DNA of 60,685 nucleotides from a virus. Lineage: Duplodnaviria; Caudoviricetes. The position numbers were made by a program, and so were the translations under genes. Below are positions 3,343 through 32,419 of this stretch, piece by piece (positions within the stretch are counted from its first letter, which is position 1; each line of letters begins with the position of its first letter). The DNA lies in the IMG/VR virus record IMGVR_UViG_3300005253_000613, positions 1 through 60,685 of that record; one strand, 5' to 3'. The notes below the pieces were generated by a model that searched no databases, was not told where the DNA came from, and saw nothing but the letters and a program-made list of their open reading frames with translations.

Positions 3343-3978
3343 TCATTTCTTTTCTCCTTTTAATATATCAATTAATTTCTGCTTTTGCCATTTCCTCACT
3401 GGTGAAGGGCGTATCTGAACCCCTTTTACGGCTTCTAATTGTGATGCTGAAATAGCTGCATATAGTGCCGCTTCATCTGACAAACCAACTGAAATAGTTG
3501 CGTCTGCTGTTCCTGCTGCATGTGCTAAATAAGATGCTGAAATAGATGCAGCAGATGCTGCCGCACGTATCCTTGCATCACCTGATGAATTTCCTACGAA
3601 AAGTGCTGCATGTGCTGGCATATACGCTCTATATGCTAATTCTCTATTTTTCTTTGTGTCTGAGATCAACACCAATCTTGCTGCTTCTATTGCCTTGCGG
3701 GGACGGTTGTCATTAGTGTAAAGATTCTCAAAGTTTGGCAATACGTGTTCAGCACACGCTATTGTAAATTCTAATGCGATTTTACGCTTCTTTTTCTTGC
3801 CAATAATCGCCCGTAAGGCCCAGATAGCAACGTCTAACCCGCTGATTTCTATTATTTGTAGCATCGAGATTTTTGATGCCGGGTTGTAGTCCGGGACATT
3901 GGTTGTCAAATGTTCAAATATGTCATTAGGGATTCTATGCTTTTGTAATTCCTCGCCCGTTGTGTATATTTCTTTCAT
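3343..3978 (-). CDS. Imm5-like domain phage protein
   Basis: ACAEHVLPNFE...DNRPRKAIEAAR followed by Ala-rich helices and WQ near C-terminus. Confidence 0.65.
   Translation of the reverse strand: MKEIYTTGEELQKHRIPNDIFEHLTTNVPDYNPASKISMLQIIEISGLDVAIWALRAIIGKKKKRKIALEFTIACAEHVLPNFENLYTNDNRPRKAIEAARLVLISDTKKNRELAYRAYMPAHAALFVGNSSGDARIRAAASAASISASYLAHAAGTADATISVGLSDEAALYAAISASQLEAVKGVQIRPSPVRKWQKQKLIDILKGEKK
3881..3969 (-). repeat. 89-bp perfect inverted repeat, left copy (partner 13882-13970)
   Basis: Reverse complement matches 13882-13970 base for base. Confidence 0.95.
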
Positions 3979-7502: not shown

Positions 7503-8420
7503 CTAAATCAACAATTCTTTTGGCGAAAAAACCGCCGGGTTAATATACTTCTTTGTAGTATCGAGTGAAGAATGTCCCATTAGTATTGAAGCATTTGCTA
7601 TTCCTTTACTTGCACAGACTGCCTGACAAACGTAATGCCTGAAACAGTGGGCTGTTGTCCCTTCATAGCCTAATAAATCGGCATAGCGCTTAATTTGTTT
7701 TCCCGCTCCGCTATCACTTAATCTGTCACCACGACTGTTTATTATGTGGTATTCGCAGCCATGATAATTCTGATCTAAAAAATCAATATAATCGGTATAT
7801 AAATTATAAGCAACGAAATTGTTGATTTTATAATCAAATGGTAAATATTTGATGTCTATATTCTTTCTTAATGATTGCCTCGTATCTTTTTTCTTGACTA
7901 ATGTTAATTCAATCATATTTTCATCATATAATAAACGCACATCCAAAGAAGTTAAATCTAATACCTGAGATATTCTTGGACCAAGAGAACCTAAGATAAA
8001 CAATAGCCAGGGATCACGTGCCCTTGATAAAGCGAAAGAACTATGCAAGGCACCTTGAATAAAGTCGGATACCATTCTGGTTGTCATAAGTACGTTGCCC
8101 CAATTATCTGCTTTAGCTCTAAAGGCTTTTTGGAGTATGAGAAAATCATCTTTACTGATATACATATTCCAGTACAAAAACTTCCCCAGTCCGAACATTA
8201 AAGTCGATTTACTTGTCAGGCTTAGATTCGTTCTATTGGAAATAAACCGGGACACATCATTTCTACCGAAAGATTCTATATTAATATCATCGACAAAATC
8301 ACGTACATGTTTTGACAAGAATCTAACGGATGATTCGCTCATGCCATCTACCCGCTTTGACGTGGCGAGTTTAATGTGTTCACTAAATTTAGTTAAGAAT
8401 TCCTTTTTATAATCATTCAT
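7503..8420 (-). CDS. Tyrosine recombinase / integrase
   Basis: GPRISQV (Arg), HCFRH, MGHSSLDTTKKY catalytic motifs; start moved to MNDYKKE (8420) because a promoter lies at 8461-8489. Confidence 0.9.
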   Translation of the reverse strand: MNDYKKEFLTKFSEHIKLATSKRVDGMSESSVRFLSKHVRDFVDDINIESFGRNDVSRFISNRTNLSLTSKSTLMFGLGKFLYWNMYISKDDFLILQKAFRAKADNWGNVLMTTRMVSDFIQGALHSSFALSRARDPWLLFILGSLGPRISQVLDLTSLDVRLLYDENMIELTLVKKKDTRQSLRKNIDIKYLPFDYKINNFVAYNLYTDYIDFLDQNYHGCEYHIINSRGDRLSDSGAGKQIKRYADLLGYEGTTAHCFRHYVCQAVCASKGIANASILMGHSSLDTTKKYINPAVFSPKELLI

Positions 8421-8460
8421 ATTAATCTTATGTTGAGTGTGACAACAATAGCTACAACAT

Positions 8461-8489
8461 AATATACAATATATTGTGGTATCATACAA
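8461..8489 (-). promoter_or_regulatory. Sigma70-type promoter for the recombinase operon
   Basis: Minus strand TTGTAT-N17-TATATT, 40 nt upstream of ATG 8420. Confidence 0.55.
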
Positions 8490-8585
8490 GAGGTAAATAT
8501 ATTTAATATCTATACCTATCATTATGATATAGTATAACTTGTGAATAGCACAATATATCATGCAAAATAAGAATAGGGCTATATT

Positions 8586-8617
8586 CATTAGGAAATTATG
8601 TAATAATGTTGTATATT
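8586..8617 (+). promoter_or_regulatory. Conserved early promoter/operator element, copy 1
   Basis: CATTAGGAA-N8-ATAATGTTGTATATT; same two blocks at 31746-31777 on minus strand. Confidence 0.65.
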
Positions 8618-10617: not shown

Positions 10618-13366
10618 ATATGATAAGTTTTAATGCAATAAAAAGTTGGTTCTATCAACAATGGGTTTTGTGGGGATTAATAATACTGGCAATTATAGTT
10701 ATATTATGTGGCTTTGTTTATCTTGCATCTTATTTGGGGAGTCACCTGCAAACAAGTGCAGATAATACCTTGTTAGAATTGTCATCCTTAACAGACCCAA
10801 CAGAAAGAGGGCTTGCATATATTGGGGTGGCAATTATAATTTCAGCTATAATAAGAGCCATATTTAACAAATAGTAGAGCATAATTTAAATCAGTTATTT
10901 GGAAACGTGCCATGAAAATAATAATACCACCATATATTTGTGAAACAATCGACAAAATGATTGAAGTTTGTATCCAAACCGAAATTGAACATTTCAAAGC
11001 ATTCGAAGATGGCACAGGTGAAAATTGCTTAATCAGTGCAGATGATGGCTATGATGACGTTACAGAGGAACTAAGGGAGCGAATAATAGACTTACTTAAT
11101 TCAGAGCAGAAAATTAATCATAATATAATAAAGATGTGAAATGTGGAAACGGTTAAAAAAAGAAGATAGGTGGCTTATAGTATTGGCTATGCCTTTTATA
11201 TTAATGTGGGCATACGTGATTATTAGTAGTTTATTTTTAATATAGGAGAAGAAATGAAATGCCTGATTTAGAAATATCTGAATTTATAGAGGTGTAAAAT
11301 GGAATTCAATTTTTGTGGAATAATAGCAAGTGTAGTAATAGGATTTGTGTTGGGAGCATTTGCGTCACTAATCTTTATAATAATTCATAAATGGAAGCAA
11401 AGTTGAGGTGTGAAATGAGGAAAAGACAATTCGATGATTTTCGAGGTGAATTAGATGTTTACGAAAACGAATTAGAGTTTATAACGGATTTGATGAATAA
11501 TGTAGGTATAGAATTCATTGATTATTGCGGCAGATCATGGAAGTATAAGAATCGGTTATTTTGGCATAAGGATTTGGGGGATAATATTTGGATCAAAGGC
11601 ATATTTTGCTTGCATTTATATGCGGAGGGAATAAAGCAGCTAATCAATCAGGAGCAACAATGAACAAGAAAATGATAATAATTGGCTTTATACTCCTCTT
11701 CCTTTGTTCAATTGGTGCCGGATATGCAATAGGGACTATTATTTTTGACGGCATATCTGCATTACGGATGGTCGTGGCGATAGTACAGATTATCTTAATA
11801 GTAGTCAATGCTATTTTTCTCAGAAAATGGATAAATCAATAGGTGGTGAAATGAAAAACCAATATGGTTAAAAAGAATTGATAATGCACTTAGTGAATGG
11901 GTCGGCGATTCAATAATAAGATGGTTCAGTATACCGATATCAGCCGTTATATTGGGTCTGATTATTGGTTACTTTGTATTTATTTATTAACTATTCAGGA
12001 GCAACAATGACTAAATTAGAATTAATAACCGAAAATAAAAAACTACGCAAACGACTCCAAGAATCCAAAGAGGGGTACAAAATTTTAATGATTTTTTACC
12101 GAAGTGCAAAAAAAGAGATAAAAATGTTTAAAAAGCAATATGGCAAACTTTTTTAATATGGGAGGCAGAAAATGAAAAAGAAATATAAAATTCAAATAGG
12201 TTTTTGGCTATACTTAATTTTAGCATTCTCGGTTGTTATCGTTGGCATACCAGCGATTATTGGAATATTTTTTTGATAAGATAACAGAAAATTTGTGGGC
12301 ATTATTAATATTAATAATATCGTCTACAATCGCTTGTAGTTTGCTCACATTATATTTTATAAATATTTACTCTGGGATAATTAATAACAATAGAAAAAAA
12401 GATGAAGTACCATTTTAAATTAGGAGCGAATTATGAACTGGAAAAAGATAAAAAAATGTCCGTTGGCATATGAATTACTGATAGCCAGCCGTGACGCTCC
12501 CACTATATTCTATGGTTACATCCGATACTTATTCGATTTCTTTGATGAGAACAGGGTGATAATGATTATTGCATTAGACGAATTAACTGATAAATTCGAA
12601 GCATGGGCAATAGCTCCCGGTTCCGATGGGTATATAGGTACTTATGACAATAGGAAAGTCGCTGAAGAACATGCGATTCTAAAATCTTTTCAAATATTAG
12701 AAAACCAATTACAGGAGCAACAATGAAAAAACTGATATTAATAATAATAGCAATATTTATGGTGAGTGCATGGTGTTTTTTCCTGTTGGGTAATTACATA
12801 GTAACAGATGAACACATAGAGCCTTATAAATGGTTTTTTACATCATTCTTTGCTATATATTTTTGCATAATGGGCATTGTTAAAATACGGGGGTTAAAGC
12901 AATGAAAAAGACACCGTGGGATGATTTAAGCGATGAACAGAAAAATTTGTTTTGGGATAAAGCATCTGCAATAAATCTTAGTAAATTACAAGAATGTGAT
13001 ACCAATGATATTGCTAATATTACCAGTGTTTTTATCAACACCATTACCGACATTGCCCGTGTCATATATGAGGGGATAGATAATGAACAAACGTTCAAGA
13101 TAAAACCGCTGGGGTGGGTGGATATAGGGAATGACATATATGATGCACACATACCGGAAGGTTTATATCGAGTATTTATGGTAACTGAATATGACGAGTT
13201 AAAATATATTTGGTATTATATGAAATGGTATATTGAAGAATATAAGGAACAGAAAAATTGCGAATCAATCGAACACGGCAAGCAACTTTGCCAAGCTCAC
13301 TACGAAGAACAAATGATGAAAAAATTAATTAAGGCATAACTAAAGTTCCACTAATTTGAGGCTCAT

Positions 13367-14469: not shown

Positions 14470-15099
14470 ATGAGAATTCTAATAGCTTGTGAAGAAAGCC
14501 AAATAGTAACAAAGGAATTTAGAAAGTTAGGGCATGAAGCATATAGTTGTGATTTAATTGAAACTTCAGGCGAACATCCAGATTGGCATATTAAAGGGGA
14601 TGTTTTGACAATATTAAATGATGGTTGGGACATGATGGTTGGATTCCCCCCTTGCACATATTTGAGTTATGCAGGCACGAGGCATTGGGATAATCCCGGG
14701 AGGTTAAGAAAACGATTAGATGCTTTGGAATTCTTTGCCAAATTATGGCTCGCACCTATAAATAAAATATGTTTAGAAAACCCAAGGGGGTGTGCCTCCC
14801 CAACAATTGCGAAATACACACAACTCATAAATCCGTATTATTTCGGGGATAATTATAGCAAACCAACTTGTTTATATTTAAAAAAATTACCGCAATTAAT
14901 ACACCATAATCAAGATGGTTTATTTGACAAAGCAACATGGGTGAGCAAAGGGGAGTTTGTAGAATATAAAAGAAAAGACGGTACGATAAAAAAAGAATCG
15001 AAATGGTTTAGGGAACTGTCCGGCAATGCTAAGGAACTGAGCAAAACATTCCCTGGAATAGCGAAAGTAATGGCTGAGCAATGGGGTGGGAACCTATGA
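14470..15099 (+). CDS. Small phage C5-cytosine DNA methyltransferase-like protein
   Basis: ILIACEES, AYSCDL, GFPPCTYL (PC motif), ICLENP, SKTFPGIA..MAEQWG. Confidence 0.75.
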   Translation: MRILIACEESQIVTKEFRKLGHEAYSCDLIETSGEHPDWHIKGDVLTILNDGWDMMVGFPPCTYLSYAGTRHWDNPGRLRKRLDALEFFAKLWLAPINKICLENPRGCASPTIAKYTQLINPYYFGDNYSKPTCLYLKKLPQLIHHNQDGLFDKATWVSKGEFVEYKRKDGTIKKESKWFRELSGNAKELSKTFPGIAKVMAEQWGGNL

Positions 15100-16890: not shown

Positions 16891-17562
16891 ATGAGTGAAA
16901 AACTAAACACCATAAATATACAAGGCAAGCCCTATGTAATGGTTCACGACCGGGTAATCAAGTTCCATAAATTGTATGAAAATGGCTGTATTCAAACTAT
17001 TTTAGTAAGTTCTTATGAATCAGACATTGTAGTTATCAAAGCCAAAGCAATACCGGATATTGACAAATCAGAGCGTTATTTCACAGGTTATGCCCAAGAA
17101 ATAAAAGGTGAAGGCTATATTAATAAAACTTCGGCACTTGAAAATGCAGAGACTTCGGCAATTGGCAGGGCTTTGGGATTGTTGGGGATAGGCATAGTAC
17201 ATGGGCTCCCCTCTGCCGATGAAATAAATAAAGCCCACAATTATAAATCTCCGGTTCAAGAACCAAACGAAAGTGAGTACAGACAAACCCCAAAATCAAG
17301 CAACCGGTCCAGTGATTACAAACAAAAACCGCGACAGCTATCTTCAAAGCAAAAAGATATGATTATTAAAGCGGCAGCAGATAATATGGTTGAAAATGAT
17401 ACTATGGCCAAATACATCCAAATAGTATGGGAAGCAGAGGATTTGAATAAGTTGGAAGCAACTTATGAAGATGTAAATGATATGATACAAACAATCAAAA
17501 ACGGCAAAATACAAGCTGAAATAGACGCTAAAATAGATATGGACACAGGGGAAATAAAATGA
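16891..17562 (+). CDS. Single-strand annealing protein (Sak/Rad52-like)
   Basis: INIQGKPYV.V.DR...ALENAETSAIGRAL..LGIG. Confidence 0.65.
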   Translation: MSEKLNTINIQGKPYVMVHDRVIKFHKLYENGCIQTILVSSYESDIVVIKAKAIPDIDKSERYFTGYAQEIKGEGYINKTSALENAETSAIGRALGLLGIGIVHGLPSADEINKAHNYKSPVQEPNESEYRQTPKSSNRSSDYKQKPRQLSSKQKDMIIKAAADNMVENDTMAKYIQIVWEAEDLNKLEATYEDVNDMIQTIKNGKIQAEIDAKIDMDTGEIK

Positions 17563-18094
17563 CAGCAGAAGAAATATTAGAAGACTATAAAACAGCGTAT
17601 CCAGATAGTTATAATAACGATTACAATATTATACAGGCTATCAAAGAAGGCTTGGAAGGTAGTAAAAAAGCAAATGACAACCAAAAATATAACGACTTAC
17701 TTGATAGTTACAATCGTTTAGATCGTTGGTGGCGGAAATTAAAAATGGAAAACCACAGTTTGAAAATGGAATATGATCCTGAGTATGCTAAACAACATAG
17801 ATTCTTAGCAGAATCAAATGCAAAATTCTTTCATCGACATCCACATCGCAAAGTCTATTATGAATTATAAGTTAAAACCAGATATAATTAAATTATGGGA
17901 TCAGGCAAACACGCAAAAACCGGGAAGTTCTGGCTGGAATGCAATAATGAATGAAATTGATTATAAGCTCAAGAAATTAACTAAAATGGAAGGTATTTTC
18001 AAAGTAAATGAATTTTTACAATATGAAGTCTATCAATTAAAAAATGAATCAGGTTTAACAGAATGACACAAGACGTTTCTAATAACTTTGGAGA

Positions 18095-18355
18095 ATGATT
18101 ATGAAAAAGTTAATATTTGTAATATTGATTGCATTAACTATAACAGGCTGTGCAAGGAGTTGTGATGATTTCGAAAGGACAACACAAGGGAATGCAGACT
18201 ACCAGGTAATTCAATATAGTGGTGGCGTAGTAGTTGGGCAATGGTCTTTTAATGGCATTGTTAACAGTAGCTTAAGCTCGGACGGATATTATTTTATTAT
18301 TAATGATCGAATGATAGAAGTGTCTGGAACAATTAAGATAATAAGAATAGATTAA
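18095..18355 (+). CDS. Putative lipoprotein
   Basis: MKK-hydrophobic-ITGC lipobox. Confidence 0.6.
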   Translation: MIMKKLIFVILIALTITGCARSCDDFERTTQGNADYQVIQYSGGVVVGQWSFNGIVNSSLSSDGYYFIINDRMIEVSGTIKIIRID

Positions 18356-18389
18356 GGCTGGTTTTTCTGATAAACTTTCTAGTCTGAAA

Positions 18390-18451
18390 GGCTACTGTTG
18401 GCACTTAGGAAGTGATCGTCCTAACTCAGGTTCAAATCCTGTCAGTAGCCC
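18390..18451 (+). ncRNA. Minimal tRNA-like element lacking a D arm (element A)
   Basis: GGCTACTG/CAGTAGCC stem, TTAGGA/TCCTAA hairpin, CAGG-TTCAAAT-CCTG T arm. Confidence 0.55.
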
Positions 18452-18488
18452 AAAAATAAATGTTTGTTCTTTAATTATAGGAGTTAAT

Positions 18489-18632
18489 ATGGATGTCTTT
18501 GAAAAAGCAGAATTGTATGATAAAATTGATGAAGATGATGAAATGACCGATAAGGAAAAGCGGGATGCTTATCGTTCAGAAATAGCCTGGGAAGAACAGC
18601 AAGAAGAAGAATGGGAAAACGATTATCAATAG
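18489..18632 (+). CDS. 47-aa highly acidic protein
   Basis: AGGAG RBS; MDVFEKAELYDKIDEDDEM...EEQQEEEWENDYQ, 20 of 47 residues D/E. Confidence 0.7.
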   Translation: MDVFEKAELYDKIDEDDEMTDKEKRDAYRSEIAWEEQQEEEWENDYQ

Positions 18633-18644
18633 TTCTTTAACATA

Positions 18645-18849
18645 GGGACGGTGGCGGAATAGGTAGGCGCGTGACAAGTTATGTGGTGGAAAGTCAATTA
18701 ATCCGATTCAGTGTGCCAATAGAAATAGAGAAGAGGCAGGATCAAACACTGATGCAACATTCACATAATATGCAAGGTGACTTAATAATAAGGTTGGATT
18801 AACGGTATACACTGCTTCTGGCCGGCTTATCAAATCCTTGCCCGTCCCT
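18645..18849 (+). ncRNA. Expanded tRNA-like RNA (element B)
   Basis: Acceptor GGGACGG/CCGTCCC, Leu-like D arm TGGCGGAATAGGTAGGCGC, T stem GCAAGG/CCTTGC with ~50-nt loop insert, central TTATGTG/CACATAA and TCAGTGT/ACACTGA stems. Confidence 0.7.
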
Positions 18850-18873
18850 TTAAATTTTAGTTCTTTTTAAAAT

Positions 18874-19002
18874 CATGCAATGGTTATGACAACAACCAAG
18901 GTAAGCGTTAAGAACCGGTAGCGTGAATTCGCTCCCGGGGGGGGATCTCTGATTTGTCTATATGAGATCGAAGGCACGGGGTGGGGAATCCCGTTTGCGT
19001 GA
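18874..19002 (+). ncRNA. Expanded tRNA-like RNA (element C)
   Basis: CATGCAA/TTGCGTG stem, TGGTT/AACCA, CCGG.AGCG/CGCT.CCGG, GATCTC/GAGATC, ACGGG-GTGGGGAAT-CCCGT. Confidence 0.55.
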
Positions 19003-19030
19003 TTTTAATTTATAGGGGCGGTGGTTAATT

Positions 19031-19495
19031 ATGGAAAATTTATTGGGGCAGAAATTATTTACACTCAATGGTGAGAATTTAATAATTAGGTTTAACAGAG
19101 AATTGTTAGAAGTATTTACCAACATGAGATCGCATCCAAATACATTTAGCAGGTGTTGGTTTTCAACATATCCTTATAGAAGATTGGGTGAGAATTTAAT
19201 TTACGCCAAAAATCATTTTAATATAAAGTTTGCAGCCGGATCATCAACTTTGTGGATAAGAGCAAATGTTAAATATGATGCTAAAATTGGCGGTTGGTGG
19301 TATGATGTAAGTGAATGGTATAGTTTGCATGATGGGAGAGAGTACAATAAGAATATGACGATTAATGATTTGCTGACAATATTTAAACGACATAAAATAG
19401 ACACAAAAATAGATTTTAACAGAGGGACGGTGGAAACACTGACAGAGCTTAAGGGCAACCACTATACACGAAATGGCTATAACATGCCTCCGTAG
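19031..19495 (+). CDS. Hypothetical protein inside the RNA cluster
   Basis: 154-aa ORF; 3' end overlaps element D. Confidence 0.55.
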   Translation: MENLLGQKLFTLNGENLIIRFNRELLEVFTNMRSHPNTFSRCWFSTYPYRRLGENLIYAKNHFNIKFAAGSSTLWIRANVKYDAKIGGWWYDVSEWYSLHDGREYNKNMTINDLLTIFKRHKIDTKIDFNRGTVETLTELKGNHYTRNGYNMPP

Positions 19496-19561
19496 CTGAG
19501 GAAAGGCAATCGAATAGCGATCGAGGGAGTGTATAACTGGAGTCAGGCAAGCCCCGTTCCT
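19424..19561 (+). ncRNA. Structured RNA with tRNA-like closing stem (element D)
   Basis: GGGACGG/CCGTTCC closing stem, same GGGACGGTGG start as element B, TGAC/GTCA and TATACAC/GTGTATA stems; no T arm. Confidence 0.45.
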
Positions 19562-19567
19562 TTTAAC

Positions 19568-19642
19568 ACGCTCTTAGCTCAGATGGTTAGCAGCACTTGC
19601 CTTTTAAGCAAGGGGTCGTTGGTTCAAATCCAGCAGGGCGTA
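19568..19642 (+). tRNA. tRNA-Lys(UUU)
   Basis: Acceptor ACGCTCT/AGGGCGT, anticodon arm CTTGC-CTTTTAA-GCAAG, T arm GTTGG-TTCAAAT-CCAGC; CCA not encoded. Confidence 0.92.
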
Positions 19643-19661
19643 CAATTTAGTTCTTAAATAT

Positions 19662-19853
19662 CCCAAGCGGTGGCTGAACGATGAAGGCAATACTGCAAAA
19701 GGTTGGTTGAAAACCTTATAAAACTAAGCATACTGGGTAACTTATTTATAGGTGAGGAAGCTGAGTAAATCTTTTCCGGTTTAGATTAACAACAAACCGT
19801 TGCAGGTAGGTATGATTGAAAGACGTTTTAATTATAAATCCTGTTCGCTTGGG
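19662..19853 (+). ncRNA. Expanded tRNA-like RNA (element E)
   Basis: CCCAAGCGG/TCGCTTGGG stem, D-arm-like TGGCTGAACGATGAAGGC, T stem GCAGG/CCTGT with hairpin TATGATTGAAA/TTTAATTATA in the loop, long central domain. Confidence 0.7.
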
Positions 19854-21188
19854 GTGTTATTTAGTTCTTAAAGTATTTATTAAAACATGGTGAAATTATG
19901 AATGAAGACATTGAGAGGCTTATAAGTCCATTTAATTTAAAAGAATTACAGTATATACTTTGGAAAGTTGAATTAGTTACAATAAAAGAAGACTTTTGGA
20001 ACATAATGAATAATCATTTTCCGGGGGAATATGATAAACATGATAAAAAAGCATTTTTCGATAAATATGCCGGTAGAGACACGCATGTTCAAGAATGGTG
20101 TGGTGATTGGTGGATTTGCGAAGATGACAGTCACCCTATCACAAAAGAATGCTTTATGGTAATAAATAGATATAGCCCGAATTTAATTAACAAGAAGAGT
20201 TGAAATGAAGCAAATAACACATACAAGCGTGAATCTTAAAGGCCTGTTACGAAATATGAAAGGACGTAAGATTGATTTTATGACCGATGATGATGGGAAA
20301 TTCCTGTCAGATAAAGAAGTTCGTAATGAGATTGATAAGTTACTGGCAAAAGGTCATAAATTAATGTGTAACAGTACAGAATGTAATGGTTTTGATCCTT
20401 ATAGCGGTGGTTGTCCGGGACATATAATAGATTAATTAACAATAGGAGTTTTAATGAATATACTTAATAAGATAGAATCATTTGAGTATGATAAAAATAG
20501 ACATCAACAATTCGGTGTTAAATCTGCTATAATTTGGGGCAATTCAAAAGATACAAACGGATGTTTCCCTATATTATATATATCAAAACCAAAACATATT
20601 TCACAAGAAGATTACGAATTATTATTAGATAGTATTGATATTCAATTTATTATAAAGGGGCGAAAAGATGGAAAAGACAATCAATGAATTAAAGAGTGAC
20701 AAGGAACAATTAGAAATAGCAACACAATCAATTGTTGCTGAATTTGAATCTAAATATCCAGATATTGCAGTTGAACTACTTTCTGTATGGCATCCAACGA
20801 ATGATTCTGGAGAAGGAGAATGTTATGTGAAGGCTAAACTTAAAGTTTTTGAAAGTGAATGAAATGCAAAGACTTATTAAAGAATGTATTAAACAATATA
20901 AATATGAGAAGGAGCAACAGGATTGCGGGATAGAAGAGAATATTTATATGAAAGAATCAAATTGTCTTTGTGGTTATCTATCATGGGTTCAAAAAAAATA
21001 TAAAAGATTAAAACAAGAACACTTCGATTTAATATCTAAATATCCCGGTTTTGATTTATGTCAGAGGCATGGTGGCAGCATGTATTTTGATTATAAAGAT
21101 TGGGTAAAGCCGGATTTATCATTTACAGGACATAAACCCACATTAAATTAATGGGATTTAAAATCGCATCAATAATAGATAAAGGGAC

Positions 21189-21997: not shown

Positions 21998-22630
21998 ATG
22001 AATAAAACAAAAATAAACTGGCCAGATTTGGATTACACCTGGAATTCCGTTGTGGGCTGTCGAAGGAATTGTTATTATTGTTATGCAAGGGAACTTAATA
22101 ATCGCTTTAAATTTATTAAAAAGTGGAATAAGCCTCAGTTTTTTGAAGAACGTTTAGAGCAGCCGGGAAAAGTGAAAAAACCAAGTGTGATTTTTGTGGG
22201 TTCAATGTGTGATTTATTCGGGGAATGGGTACCTGATGAGTGGATTGATAAAATAATTGAAGTTTGTAAAATAGAGACACAACATACATATATGTTTTTA
22301 ACTAAAAATCCAATTAGGTATTTTGATTTTCGATTTCCTGAGAACTGTCAACTTGGGGCGACTGTGACAAATCCAAGAACAAGAGAAAATGTTATGATAT
22401 TTGAGGATATACTATATGTTGCTTTTCATTATAAAAATAAAATATTTCTAAGCATAGAACCACTTTTAGGTTCTTTTAAAGATTTCGATTTATCCAAATT
22501 TAATCAAATTATTGTCGGTGCCATGACAGGTAAGAATGCAGTTGTCCCGGAACAGGAATGGATAAAATCAATTCAACATACTAATATACATTTTAAAACA
22601 AACATACATAAATACTTAGGTACAAAATGA
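21998..22630 (+). CDS. DUF5131 (phage Gp37/Gp68, radical-SAM-like) protein
   Basis: TKINW...TWN.V.GCRRNCYYCYA, IFVGSMCDLF, FLTKNP, FLSIEPLL. Confidence 0.85.
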   Translation: MNKTKINWPDLDYTWNSVVGCRRNCYYCYARELNNRFKFIKKWNKPQFFEERLEQPGKVKKPSVIFVGSMCDLFGEWVPDEWIDKIIEVCKIETQHTYMFLTKNPIRYFDFRFPENCQLGATVTNPRTRENVMIFEDILYVAFHYKNKIFLSIEPLLGSFKDFDLSKFNQIIVGAMTGKNAVVPEQEWIKSIQHTNIHFKTNIHKYLGTK

Positions 22631-23007
22631 GACCATATAAAGCAAAGAAAAAAGGCACTGATATTTGGCTCTATGGGTGGTATACTTATGACGATCGTAC
22701 GGATACTCATTTCCTTTATGTTTATGACAAAGATAACAATGTATCACATAAATATATCATTGACCCTTCTACCGTTTGCCAACAAATAGGTTTACCAGAT
22801 AACGAAGGCAATGAGATATATGATAAACAAATAATGGAAAGTATACAGTATACGTTTGCTGTAATATGGAATAATGAGGAATCTATATATGAATTGCACC
22901 GCAATAATGGCACGGCATTAGCTGATGCAAGGGATATGGAACTCAATAGATGTGAAAGTATCGGCAACACCATCGATAATCCAGATTTCTTTGGGAGTAA
23001 AGAGTGA
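22627..23007 (+). CDS. YopX family protein
   Basis: IDPSTVCQ.IGL.D.EG.EIY, IGNTIDNPD. Confidence 0.75.
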   Translation: MRPYKAKKKGTDIWLYGWYTYDDRTDTHFLYVYDKDNNVSHKYIIDPSTVCQQIGLPDNEGNEIYDKQIMESIQYTFAVIWNNEESIYELHRNNGTALADARDMELNRCESIGNTIDNPDFFGSKE

Positions 23008-31777: not shown

Positions 31778-32419
31778 TTGTTTTAATATAGTGTATATAT
31801 ATTTACTACCCACTAAGCTATGGTTGACTTATGAGGTTCTAATTGTGGATGGTGGGGAATGGTGGTTAGGGGTGATGTATAGGGGTTGTGACAAATTTTA
31901 GATAGTAATTTTAGTTTTTTTAGTGCTTAAATATAGTTTCTATCCTACTCCTGTTTATCAATTATAATCAGGAGCTTATATCCCTAAACGTAGACTGGAT
32001 GGGGGATTTAAATAATCAAATACCCACCCCTGTTCACATTTGATCGCCCCAAGGGTGAGTGGTATCAGCCCGCCCCAAACTCAGGAAAACGAAAAAACAA
32101 ACTAAACGCTCAAAAGGTAATAGTGTCTTAGCACACCGTATTAAAGCGTAGCACCACCAAAGCGGTTAATATGGTGTTAGGATAGTTTAAGGGGATTAAA
32201 GTGTCTTAGGGACGAGTTATGTACTCCTGATTAGTACATAAAAATTAGGAAGTTAAGGGAGGTGGAGTTAGATTGTGGTTATGAAAGTAATAAAAATAGA
32301 GCAAAAGCAACGGTTTAGTGTTTCATCACATTTATCAGTGTTTGATAAGGTATGTGGTTCAATACTGTAGACGAGTGCTTAAAAAGGCTCGATTTTATTT
32401 AGCAACTATCAAAGGCGAA

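What the first reader, a model, noticed from the sequence alone, without database searches (positions are those of the whole stretch)
19662..19853. Element E repeats the T-loop-hairpin architecture with unrelated sequence
Seen: GCAGG-T...hairpin(TATGATTGAAA-GACG-TTTTAATTATA)...AAT-CCTGT puts a hairpin at the same T-loop position as in B, with a D-arm-like 5' end and a >100-nt central domain (GGTT.GTTG/CAAC.AACC). CTGCAA near the 5' side can pair with TTGCAG overlapping the T stem, giving an alternative fold. Two sequence-unrelated RNAs with the same odd topology suggest an RNA class rather than random decay (inference).
Basis: partly seen in the sequence, partly recalled or inferred. Interest (0 to 1): 0.75.

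Follow-up and report, generated by a model that had tools for sequence, protein, structure and literature searches.

The report
Oversized tRNA-like RNA beside phage tRNA
A temperate phage from marine sediment carries, next to its one normal tRNA gene, a 190-base RNA gene that keeps the outer frame of a tRNA but has a hairpin inserted in its T loop and a large new middle part, much like the still unexplained small RNAs of phage T4.

Summary
Window 19662-19853 (+) folds better than its shuffles (z about -3). It has a full tRNA frame: a 7-bp acceptor stem, U8-G9, a 3-bp D stem, and a 5-bp T stem that abuts the acceptor. Its T loop is 33 nt and holds an 11-bp hairpin, and about 110 nt replace the anticodon and variable region.

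A strict descriptor of this frame hit three sites in the 60.7-kb window: tRNA-Lys, E and a second oversized element at 18645-18849. It hit nothing in 30 shuffles. The second element is tRNA-Leu-derived and has an insert at the same T-loop spot. The two elements show no detectable sequence similarity.

A relative from another study keeps E. Its 12 substitutions and 1 insertion fall in loops or keep pairs, and 6 lie in one 11-nt loop.

tRNA, tmRNA and all other Rfam models fail on E, and it has no anticodon loop. No further homologues were found, so an "RNA class" is not shown.

Best reading: a tRNA-scaffolded stable non-coding RNA, analogous to T4 RNAC/RNAD. Its function is unknown.

The parts
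19662..19853 (+). Element E, oversized tRNA-like RNA gene (tRNA frame 19664-19852)
   Evidence: Fold z -2.8/-3.0; strict tRNA-frame descriptor hit; kept in a relative; no ORF of 40 aa or more on either strand
19664..19670 (+). Acceptor stem 5' strand CAAGCGG; pairs with 19845-19851 UCGCUUG (6 Watson-Crick pairs + G7.U66). C19662 and C19663 add two outer pairs with G19852 and G19853
   Evidence: mean pair probability 0.92 (outer two pairs 1.00); unchanged in the relative
19671..19688 (+). U8 G9, then a D-arm-like stretch GCU-GAACGAUGAA-GGC (G10-C25, C11-G24, U12.G23)
   Evidence: Geometry from the sequence. Thermodynamic probability is only 0.10. Similarity to reference tRNAs is not above chance. 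19679 C>U in the relative lies in the loop
19699..19717 (+). Hairpin H1 AAGGUU-GGUUGAA-AACCUU (6 bp, 7-nt loop without U33); the nearest thing to an anticodon arm
   Evidence: probability 0.59 (window allele) and 0.93 (relative). The relative has one A inserted in the loop after 19706
19740..19753 (+). Hairpin H2 ACUUA-UUUA-UAGGU
   Evidence: The two changes in the relative keep the pairs (A-U to G.U at 19740, U.G to C-G at 19742). Predicted in the relative's ensemble (0.77) but not in the window allele (0.00)
19777..19799 (+). Hairpin H3 CGGUUU-[11-nt loop 19783-19793]-AAACCG; the loop is hypervariable
   Evidence: 6 of the 11 loop bases differ in the relative while both stem strands are unchanged. 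Probability 0.43 / 0.75
19802..19844 (+). T arm: stem GCAGG/CCUGU and a 33-nt T loop (U19807, AGG, hairpin, AAU)
   Evidence: Stem probability 0.68 / 0.85. Abuts the acceptor 3' strand as in tRNAs. Unchanged in the relative
19811..19836 (+). Hairpin inserted in the T loop (11 bp including 2 G.U, loop GACG)
   Evidence: probability 0.98. The G.U pairs would be A.C mismatches on the other strand, which points to the + strand
19693..19698 (+). CUGCAA, can pair with UUGCAG 19800-19805 (alternative fold that excludes the T stem)
   Evidence: probability 0.25 / 0.13. 19697 A>G in the relative turns A-U into G.U, so the pairing survives
19568..19642 (+). tRNA-Lys(UUU), the only canonical tRNA in the record
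   Evidence: ARAGORN; Rfam RF00005, 58.7 bits
19646..19655 (+). Spacer motif TTTAGTTCTT (also at 18856-18865 and 19860-19869; variant TAGTTCTT at 18631-18638)
   Evidence: the 3 exact copies in the window all lie in this cluster, each 3-7 nt after the discriminator of an RNA element
18645..18849 (+). Element A, second oversized tRNA-frame RNA. Its 5' 27 nt are tRNA-Leu-like. T stem 18772-77/18836-41 with a 51-nt insert 18779-18829 right after U54
   Evidence: score 13 against null 5.9, 0 of 300; the top two hits are both tRNA-Leu. Absent from the relative. Its fold z is only -1.2
18874..19002 (+). Element B, about 130 nt, tRNA-like: CAUGCAA/UUGCGUG, UG, D hairpin, T arm ACGGG-GUGGGGAAU-CCCGU, two central hairpins
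   Evidence: z -2.0. Fails the strict descriptor. Absent from the relative
19424..19560 (+). Element C, structured RNA closed by GGGACGG/CCGUUCC, with no T arm next to the acceptor
   Evidence: z -2.5. 1 change in the relative

Best explanation
E is a phage gene for a stable non-coding RNA built on a tRNA scaffold.

It lies on the same strand as tRNA-Lys(UUU) and three other structured RNAs, inside the early gene block. It is most likely made as part of one long transcript (inferred).

What remains of the tRNA is the acceptor stem stacked on the T stem, U8-G9 and a short D stem. I infer that this frame lets the host tRNA-processing enzymes cut the RNA out, RNase P at the 5' end and RNase Z or exonucleases at the 3' end, since no CCA is encoded. 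I also infer that it protects the RNA's ends.

E cannot decode. It has no anticodon loop, about 110 nt with three hairpins sit where the anticodon and variable arms should be, and an 11-bp hairpin sits in the T loop where the D and T loops normally meet (shown from the sequence).

The working parts would then be the added hairpins and loops. The H3 loop differs at 6 of 11 bases between two otherwise nearly identical phages, which fits a specificity determinant such as a base-pairing or protein-contact loop (inferred).

The actual target is unknown. One guess is a decoy or regulator in the conflict over tRNA-cutting defence systems, because the neighbouring real tRNA is tRNA-Lys(UUU), a known target of such systems.
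For: - tRNA frame beyond chance. A strict descriptor hits only A, tRNA-Lys and E in the window, with 0 hits in 30 shuffles.
- Fold stability. z is -2.8/-3.0 on the + strand, and four coding controls are near 0. The G.U pairs favour the + strand.
- Not a tRNA. ARAGORN and Rfam find only tRNA-Lys, even at E up to 10 on E alone.
- Second element. A is clearly tRNA-Leu-derived and has its insert at the same T-loop spot. Taking A's insert out would leave UUCAAAU, the T loop of the phage's own tRNA-Lys.
- Conservation. A contig from another study keeps C, tRNA-Lys and E. All 12 substitutions and the 1 insertion in E fall in predicted loops or unpaired stretches, or keep a pair. The acceptor, T arm, T-loop hairpin, H1 stem and H3 stem are untouched.
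- Precedent. T4 has RNAC (139 nt, canonical T arm plus acceptor closing two long hairpins) and RNAD inside its tRNA cluster, next to a homing endonuclease gene. Their roles are unknown (PMC3014915, passage read).
- tRNA-Lys(UUU) is cut by defence nucleases (PMC13056530, passages read; PMC11464382 and PMC12409363, title and start of abstract in the listing).
Against: - No expression data. No RNA run was listed that holds the stretch.
- Only two alleles are known. No compensatory double change was seen. My rough estimate that 12 random substitutions would spare all pairs is about 0.07, and H2 and H3 were chosen with the variant in view.
- The D stem has thermodynamic probability 0.10, and H2 has 0.00 in the window allele.
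- E's D-arm sequence is not significantly tRNA-like.
- In E. coli an engineered tRNA-Tyr with an aptamer in the T loop (between 57 and 58) was not detectable, while a V-loop insert was stable (PMC5397188, passages read). A T-loop insert may therefore destabilise rather than help.
- The two extra pairs outside the acceptor stem (C-1:G73, C-2:G74) are not typical of RNase P substrates (recalled).
- A's tRNA-frame fold is 10.9 kcal/mol worse than its unconstrained MFE, and its z is only -1.2.
- The relative lacks A and B, so those two are dispensable.
Confidence: 0.5

Rival explanations
1. E and A are decaying tRNA pseudogenes. They were once class II tRNA genes, picked up insertions, and are now non-functional DNA on the way to deletion.
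For: - A is tRNA-Leu-derived but undecodable.
- The relative has lost A and B through a 779-nt deletion between 11-nt repeats.
- A's fold is not better than its shuffles (z -1.2).
- No homologues were found elsewhere.
Against: - Decay should hit stems as often as loops. In E all 7 acceptor pairs, all 5 T-stem pairs and the 11-bp insert hairpin are intact, and z is -3.
- None of the 13 changes in the relative breaks a helix.
- The inserts are themselves structured.
- From general knowledge, phage genomes lose useless DNA quickly.
Confidence: 0.2
2. The elements matter only in cis, as processing punctuation. The tRNA-like ends recruit RNase P and RNase Z to cut the early polycistronic transcript into separate mRNAs, and the released RNA has no job of its own.
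For: - The elements lie between coding blocks on the same strand.
- The motif TTTAGTTCTT is repeated after each element.
- The tRNA frame is retained.
Against: - A plain tRNA, or the tRNA-Lys already present, would do this job.
- It does not explain about 110 nt of structured insert, the conserved T-loop hairpin, or four such elements in a row.
- The hypervariable H3 loop has no role in this model.
Confidence: 0.12
3. E and A are real tRNA genes broken up by unconventional introns (in the T loop at 54/55 and in the anticodon/variable region). Splicing would yield a working tRNA.
For: - Removing A's 51-nt T-loop insert would restore exactly UUCAAAU.
- Both elements have the insert at the same site.
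Against: - After any simple excision E has no 5-bp stem with a 7-nt loop carrying U33 and R37. H1's loop is GGUUGAA, and 8 nt in the relative.
- ARAGORN's intron mode finds nothing at default thresholds. At 80% it makes only a spurious call that uses the spacer as a T arm.
- The T-loop hairpin is a perfect 11-bp helix without a bulge-helix-bulge.
- No group I or group II model hit.
- No RtcB in the record, and no RNA ligase among the 34 different ORFs I scanned with Pfam.
- Lipoprotein signal and Shine-Dalgarno motifs suggest a bacterial host (sequence).
Confidence: 0.05
4. No RNA function at all. The region is a DNA-level recombination patchwork, with cassettes joined at CGGTGG and TTTAGTTCTT, and the folds are by-products.
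For: - The 779-nt indel is bounded by the 11-nt repeat AGGGACGGTGG.
- There is a third GGGGCGGTGG copy at 19015.
- Differences from the relative are bunched in 19633-19793, like a recombination patch.
- ORF154's C-terminus is replaced at that junction.
Against: - A patchwork explains how the cluster is shuffled. It does not explain why each cassette has intact tRNA-frame stems found in 0 of 30 shuffles.
- It does not explain why E folds 3 sd better than its shuffles.
Confidence: 0.08

Closest known systems
Phage T4 RNAC (species 1, 139 nt) and RNAD (species 2, 119 nt)
   Same: - They are small RNAs encoded inside a phage tRNA gene cluster on the tRNA strand, with a protein gene interspersed (segB in T4, ORF154 here).
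- RNAC ends in a T arm plus acceptor strand that closes a body of long hairpins.
- Their biological role is unknown (PMC3014915, passage read).
   Different: - There is no sequence similarity. blastn of E against 50,697 phage records, T4 included, found only six 35-nt chance-level matches.
- RNAC has a canonical UUCGAAU T loop and an imperfect acceptor stem. E has a perfect acceptor stem, a D-stem frame and a 26-nt hairpin inside the T loop.
- T4 is a virulent phage. This one is temperate.
Engineered tRNA-scaffold RNAs (Spinach-tRNA fusions, PMC5397188; tRNA scaffold for recombinant RNA, recalled from Ponchon and Dardel, not seen here)
   Same: A foreign structured RNA is carried inside a tRNA frame. 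A 183-nt V-loop fusion was stable and processed in E. coli (passages read).
   Different: - These are man-made.
- The T-loop fusion (between 57 and 58) and the D-loop fusion were not detectable in cells, whereas E and A carry their hairpin in the T loop.
- The V-loop fusion still decodes. E cannot.
tmRNA
   Same: An acceptor and T-arm 'top half' of a tRNA closes a large non-tRNA body.
   Different: - Neither Rfam nor ARAGORN detects a tmRNA. Only a very low-threshold ARAGORN call spans tRNA-Lys and E.
- There are no pseudoknot series, no tag reading frame and no G3.U70.
- tmRNA has a canonical T loop (recalled).
Bacterial Y RNA-like YrlA (PMC4201824, title and start of abstract only, listing)
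   Same: It is a non-coding RNA that mimics tRNA. I recall, and did not see here, that some are phage-encoded.
   Different: - There is no Rfam hit and no Ro60/TROVE gene in the record.
- In YrlA the RNA ends form the Ro-binding stem, not the acceptor (recalled).

Membership tests
tRNA (Rfam RF00005) | Covariance-model score at or above the gathering score (29 bits), or an ARAGORN call | tested here: not met
   Only 19568-19642 scores (58.7 bits). E gives no tRNA match even at E up to 10 when searched alone. ARAGORN at default thresholds and in intron mode finds only tRNA-Lys.
tRNA (Rfam RF00005) | 7-bp acceptor stem, U8, D stem starting at G10, 5-bp T stem abutting the acceptor 3' strand | tested here: met
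   0 hits in 30 shuffles.
tRNA (Rfam RF00005) | Anticodon arm: 5-bp stem and 7-nt loop with U33 and a purine at 37, directly after position 26 | tested here: not met
   The only 7-nt-loop hairpin (H1, loop GGUUGAA) lies 9 nt after A26 and lacks U33. Its loop is 8 nt in the relative.
tRNA (Rfam RF00005) | 7-nt T loop (UUCRANY) | tested here: not met
   The T loop is 33 nt, with an 11-bp hairpin between U-AGG and AAU.
T4 RNAC/RNAD-type phage stable RNAs (no curated model) | Encoded within a phage tRNA gene cluster, on the same strand | tested here: met
   E starts 20 nt after the tRNA-Lys gene. T4 layout.
T4 RNAC/RNAD-type phage stable RNAs (no curated model) | tRNA-like T arm plus acceptor closing a larger body | tested here: met
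   for E; for RNAC.
T4 RNAC/RNAD-type phage stable RNAs (no curated model) | Sequence homology to RNAC or RNAD | tested here: not met
   blastn of E against the phage collection, which holds T4, found no such match.
T4 RNAC/RNAD-type phage stable RNAs (no curated model) | Accumulates as a discrete stable RNA during infection | not testable with these tools
   No RNA run holding the stretch was listed.
tmRNA | Detection by the tmRNA model; tag reading frame; pseudoknots | tested here: not met
   Searches find none. ARAGORN -m at a 70% threshold gives only a 352-nt 'permuted' call across tRNA-Lys and E.
YrlA / bacterial Y RNA | Rfam model match and a neighbouring Ro60 (TROVE) gene | tested here: not met
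   No Rfam hit. PF05731 is absent from the record, which is estimated 78% complete.
Intron-bearing tRNA (archaeal bulge-helix-bulge or bacterial group I) | Bulge-helix-bulge at the insert borders, or a group I core, and a decodable tRNA after excision | tested here: not met
   The insert is an uninterrupted 11-bp hairpin. No intron model hit. No RtcB. There is no anticodon arm after excision.

The most novel reading that the evidence does not exclude
E, A and probably B and C belong to an undescribed group of phage 'tRNA-scaffold' RNAs. In this reading the T loop (right after U54) and the anticodon/variable region are ports for exchangeable hairpin payloads. The cassettes are shuffled between phages at conserved junctions: CGGTGG at positions 5-10 and the TTTAGTTCTT spacer. 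The hypervariable loop would set the specificity of an anti-defence or inter-phage competition function, for example a decoy or inhibitor for tRNA-cutting immune nucleases, working beside the phage's replacement tRNA-Lys(UUU).
Probability: 0.15. Interest if true: 0.8.

Novelty: new variant of a known kind. Interest (0 to 1): 0.55.

Why it matters
Phage T4's tRNA-cluster RNAs RNAC and RNAD have had no known role for decades. This finding shows the same design in an unrelated temperate phage, with a tRNA frame closing a large foreign body.

It adds two things. First, a hairpin sits in the T loop at the same spot in two elements that share no sequence similarity. Second, one loop differs sharply between near-identical phages.

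If these RNAs are made and stable, they are natural versions of the tRNA scaffolds used in biotechnology. They would show that a T-loop insert can be tolerated, which failed in an engineered case.

They would also give a tractable handle on what non-decoding tRNA mimics do in phage infection, at a time when many bacterial defence systems are found to cut tRNAs.

Tried and rejected
Searches for homologues that found nothing:
- Exact-word scans with pieces of E found 0 in IMG/VR and 0 in JGI metagenomes. GTDB genomes gave 3 hits, all chance, with no similarity outside the 19-mer.
- Protein-anchored searches for related phages in IMG/VR found 0 relatives with ORF101, the replication initiator, TerL and the ORF154 family alignment.
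- A tRNA-Lys word found two unrelated contigs, L007 and L008, with nothing like E.
- blastn of E and of A+B against 50,697 phage records gave only chance-level 35-nt matches.
- The 223-aa upstream protein has only 2 close relatives among 5.8 billion proteins (99% and 75% identity). This phage lineage is therefore rare in the databases.

Other dead ends:
- Expression: no RNA holder was listed for the stretch.
- Antisense targets: the longest perfect complement of E in the window is 13 nt (19742-19754 against 14753-14765). That is about what chance gives.
- Promoter and terminator scan of 17500-20600: counts are near the shuffle level and nothing flanks E.
- Partner enzymes: no TROVE, RtcB or reverse transcriptase in the record. 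No RNA ligase or repair enzyme among the 34 different ORFs scanned with Pfam.
- MAFFT and Smith-Waterman comparison of A, B, C, tRNA-Lys and E: no pair scores above its shuffles.
- My recollection that E's D arm resembles tRNA-Ser was not borne out.

Tools that were not available:
- The search of protein representatives was not accepting jobs.
- Supplementary files were not consulted.

Full report
**Setting**

The window is a whole IMG/VR virus record of 60,685 bp, estimated 78% complete. It is a temperate tailed phage with an integrase (7503-8588, minus strand), a large terminase, a portal and a head protein. Runs that hold it are labelled marine sediment metagenome.

Between ORF 18489-18632 and ORF 19898-20203 lie 1.26 kb with one canonical tRNA, tRNA-Lys(UUU) at 19568-19642 (ARAGORN; Rfam 58.7 bits). 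The same stretch holds four structured elements on the same strand:
- A: 18645-18849
- B: 18874-19002
- C: 19424-19560
- E: 19662-19853

The protein gene ORF154 (19031-19495) sits between B and C. The 10-mer TTTAGTTCTT occurs exactly three times in the window. All three copies are here, each 3-7 nt after the discriminator base of A, tRNA-Lys or E.

**The observation**

Put into tRNA numbering, E reads as follows:
- Acceptor stem: CAAGCGG (19664-70) with UCGCUUG (19845-51), plus two further outer pairs.
- U8, G9.
- D stem: G10-C25, C11-G24, U12.G23.
- T stem: GCAGG (19802-06) with CCUGU (19840-44), directly abutting the acceptor 3' strand.
- T loop: U-AGG-[11-bp hairpin 19811-36]-AAU.
- No CCA is encoded.

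The + strand folds at -52.7 kcal/mol, with z -2.8 and -3.0 (1 of 150 shuffles as good). The minus strand gives -1.9, and four flanking coding controls lie between -0.8 and +1.1.

A loose geometric descriptor is worthless, since it gave 13 + 10 hits in the real window. A strict one behaves differently. It requires:
- a 7-bp acceptor stem with at least 3 G-C pairs and at most 1 G.U;
- U8, R9, G10;
- a 3-bp D stem;
- a 5- or 6-bp T stem abutting the acceptor;
- a T loop of the form U...AA.U, up to 90 nt long.

This descriptor hit exactly A, tRNA-Lys and E on the + strand. It hit nothing on the minus strand, and nothing in 30 of 30 dinucleotide shuffles. I wrote the descriptor after seeing E, so the test is not blind.

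A slightly relaxed form was run on seven other loci, about 60 kb in all. These included the tRNA clusters of T4, Vibrio phage Ceto and an IMG/VR contig with 38 tRNAs. It gave only short hits of 95 nt or less, all on the tRNA strands (4, 13 and 10 hits), and no oversized ones.

**What E is not**

- Rfam gives no match to E for any of its 4,227 families, even at E up to 10 on E alone.
- ARAGORN finds nothing at default thresholds or in intron mode. Its lower-threshold calls are spurious.
- There is no anticodon arm. The only 7-nt-loop hairpin (H1, loop GGUUGAA) lacks U33, lies 9 nt after A26, and has an 8-nt loop in the relative.
- E's D-arm sequence is not more tRNA-like than its shuffles (score 6 against 5.7). 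My recollection that it resembles tRNA-Ser is therefore unsupported.
- The CUGCAA/UUGCAG alternative has probability 0.25/0.13. It survives the relative's A>G change as a G.U pair, so it remains possible.

**The second element**

A's first 27 nt match tRNA-Leu. The score is 13 against a null of 5.9 +/- 1.3, reached by 0 of 300 shuffles, and the two best of the 34 reference tRNAs are both tRNA-Leu.

A's T arm is GCAAGG-U[51 nt]UCAAAU-CCUUGC. Without the 51 nt it would read UUCAAAU, which is the T loop of the phage's own tRNA-Lys. E's T loop can be read the same way, as U[26 nt]AUAAAU. Both inserts therefore follow U54, and both contain a hairpin.

A and E have no detectable sequence similarity. 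The support from A has limits: its fold is not better than its shuffles (z -1.2), and its tRNA-frame fold is 10.9 kcal/mol worse than its unconstrained MFE.

**A relative**

In run X5, which comes from a different study, a 3,990-nt contig covers 18400-18643 and 19423-20300. It skips 18644-19422, a 779-nt stretch bounded by the 11-nt repeat AGGGACGGTGG. That phage therefore lacks A, B and most of ORF154, but keeps C, tRNA-Lys and E.

Its differences from the window are distributed as follows:
- 0 differences in the 244 nt upstream;
- 18 substitutions and 2 indels in the 878 nt downstream;
- of these, 12 substitutions and 1 insertion lie in E, and nearly all differences fall within 19633-19793.

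The bunching looks like a recombination patch, or a locally fast-changing segment.

Within E, the acceptor, the T arm, the T-loop hairpin and the stems of H1 and H3 carry no change. Two changes in H2 keep their pairs (A-U to G.U, and U.G to C-G). The insertion is in the H1 loop. Six changes fall in the 11-nt H3 loop.

This fits a structured RNA, but it is weak statistically. My rough estimate of sparing every pair by chance is about 0.07, there is no double compensatory change, and H2 and H3 were picked with the variant in view.

A second X5 contig of 888 nt shares tRNA-Lys, the spacer and the first 17 nt of E, then diverges. This hints at a third, more distant form. I could not retrieve it.

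**No further homologues**

All collection scans and blastn searches failed. The phage lineage itself is rare: the neighbouring 223-aa protein has 2 close relatives among 5.8 billion proteins. The claim of an RNA class therefore rests on two paralogous-by-architecture elements in one phage plus one relative.

**Mechanism**

I commit to a tRNA-scaffolded stable non-coding RNA, with confidence 0.5.
- Shown: the frame, the inserts, the inability to decode, and the conservation pattern.
- Inferred: co-transcription with the early genes; release by RNase P and RNase Z; stability from the closed ends; and a function that resides in the added loops.

The closest precedent is T4 RNAC/RNAD, whose roles remain unknown (PMC3014915, passage read).

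Against easy stability stands an engineered T-loop aptamer fusion of tRNA-Tyr. It was undetectable in E. coli, whereas a V-loop fusion of 183 nt was stable (PMC5397188, passages read).

A decoy or regulator role in conflicts over tRNA-cutting defences is only a guess. It is prompted by the neighbouring tRNA-Lys(UUU), which such nucleases target (PMC13056530, passages read; PMC11464382 and PMC12409363, seen only in the listing). No partner protein was found: no TROVE, RtcB or reverse transcriptase in the record.

**Rivals**

- Decaying pseudogenes: 0.2
- Processing punctuation only: 0.12
- A DNA-level recombination patchwork with no RNA function: 0.08
- Intron-bearing tRNAs: 0.05

**Verdict**

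E is a real, unusual tRNA-derived RNA gene, and a new variant of a known but unexplained kind. Class status and function remain open.

Noticed in passing
window 18644-19422: This 779-nt segment holds A, B and the first 131 codons of ORF154. It is absent from a relative's contig, and the joint lies in an 11-nt direct repeat AGGGACGGTGG, which is the 5' end of both A and C. A third, slightly different copy, GGGGCGGTGG, sits at 19015, just before the ORF154 start. Positions 5-10 of A, C, E and this copy all read CGGTGG.
   Followed up: partly
window 19031-19495 (+): ORF154 is a real but unnamed protein family. It has three homologues at 69-76% identity on short metagenome contigs, and no Pfam, PHROG, PDB or Atlas match. 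The homology stops near residue 128-131. The window's last 24 residues are read out of RNA element C, so the C-terminus was replaced at the recombination joint. Its place inside an RNA cluster recalls segB in the T4 tRNA cluster, but nothing shows that it is an endonuclease.
   Followed up: partly
window 18856-18865, 19646-19655, 19860-19869 (variant at 18631-18638): TTTAGTTCTT follows each RNA element and precedes the next one by 6-8 nt. In the relative the copy at 19646 keeps TAGTTCTT but changes its first bases. It could be a processing signal, a cassette boundary, or the trace of duplication.
   Followed up: partly
window 19568-19642: The phage's only canonical tRNA is tRNA-Lys(UUU), a species reported as a target of bacterial defence tRNases. 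It may serve as a replacement tRNA. The relative has 19633 G>A, which turns a U.G pair of the T stem into U-A.
   Followed up: no
L008 (IMG/VR contig, 13,545 bp), about 12162-12380, minus strand: This contig carries 38 ARAGORN tRNAs in 13.5 kb. By eye, in the printout, one gap holds what looks like a tRNA whose anticodon loop is interrupted by about 200 nt. It could be an intron.
   Followed up: no
window 19742-19754 vs 14753-14765; 18741-18753 vs 32334-32346: E and A each have a 13-nt perfect complement to a + strand coding region elsewhere in the phage. This is about the length expected by chance.
   Followed up: partly
window 3343-3978 (-), 22627-23007 (+), 21998-22630 (+): These ORFs are an Imm5-like immunity protein, a YopX-family protein and a DUF5131 protein. 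Shine-Dalgarno motifs before several ORFs and a lipoprotein signal at 18095-18355 suggest a bacterial host that uses Shine-Dalgarno sites and has low G+C. The host was not identified.
   Followed up: no
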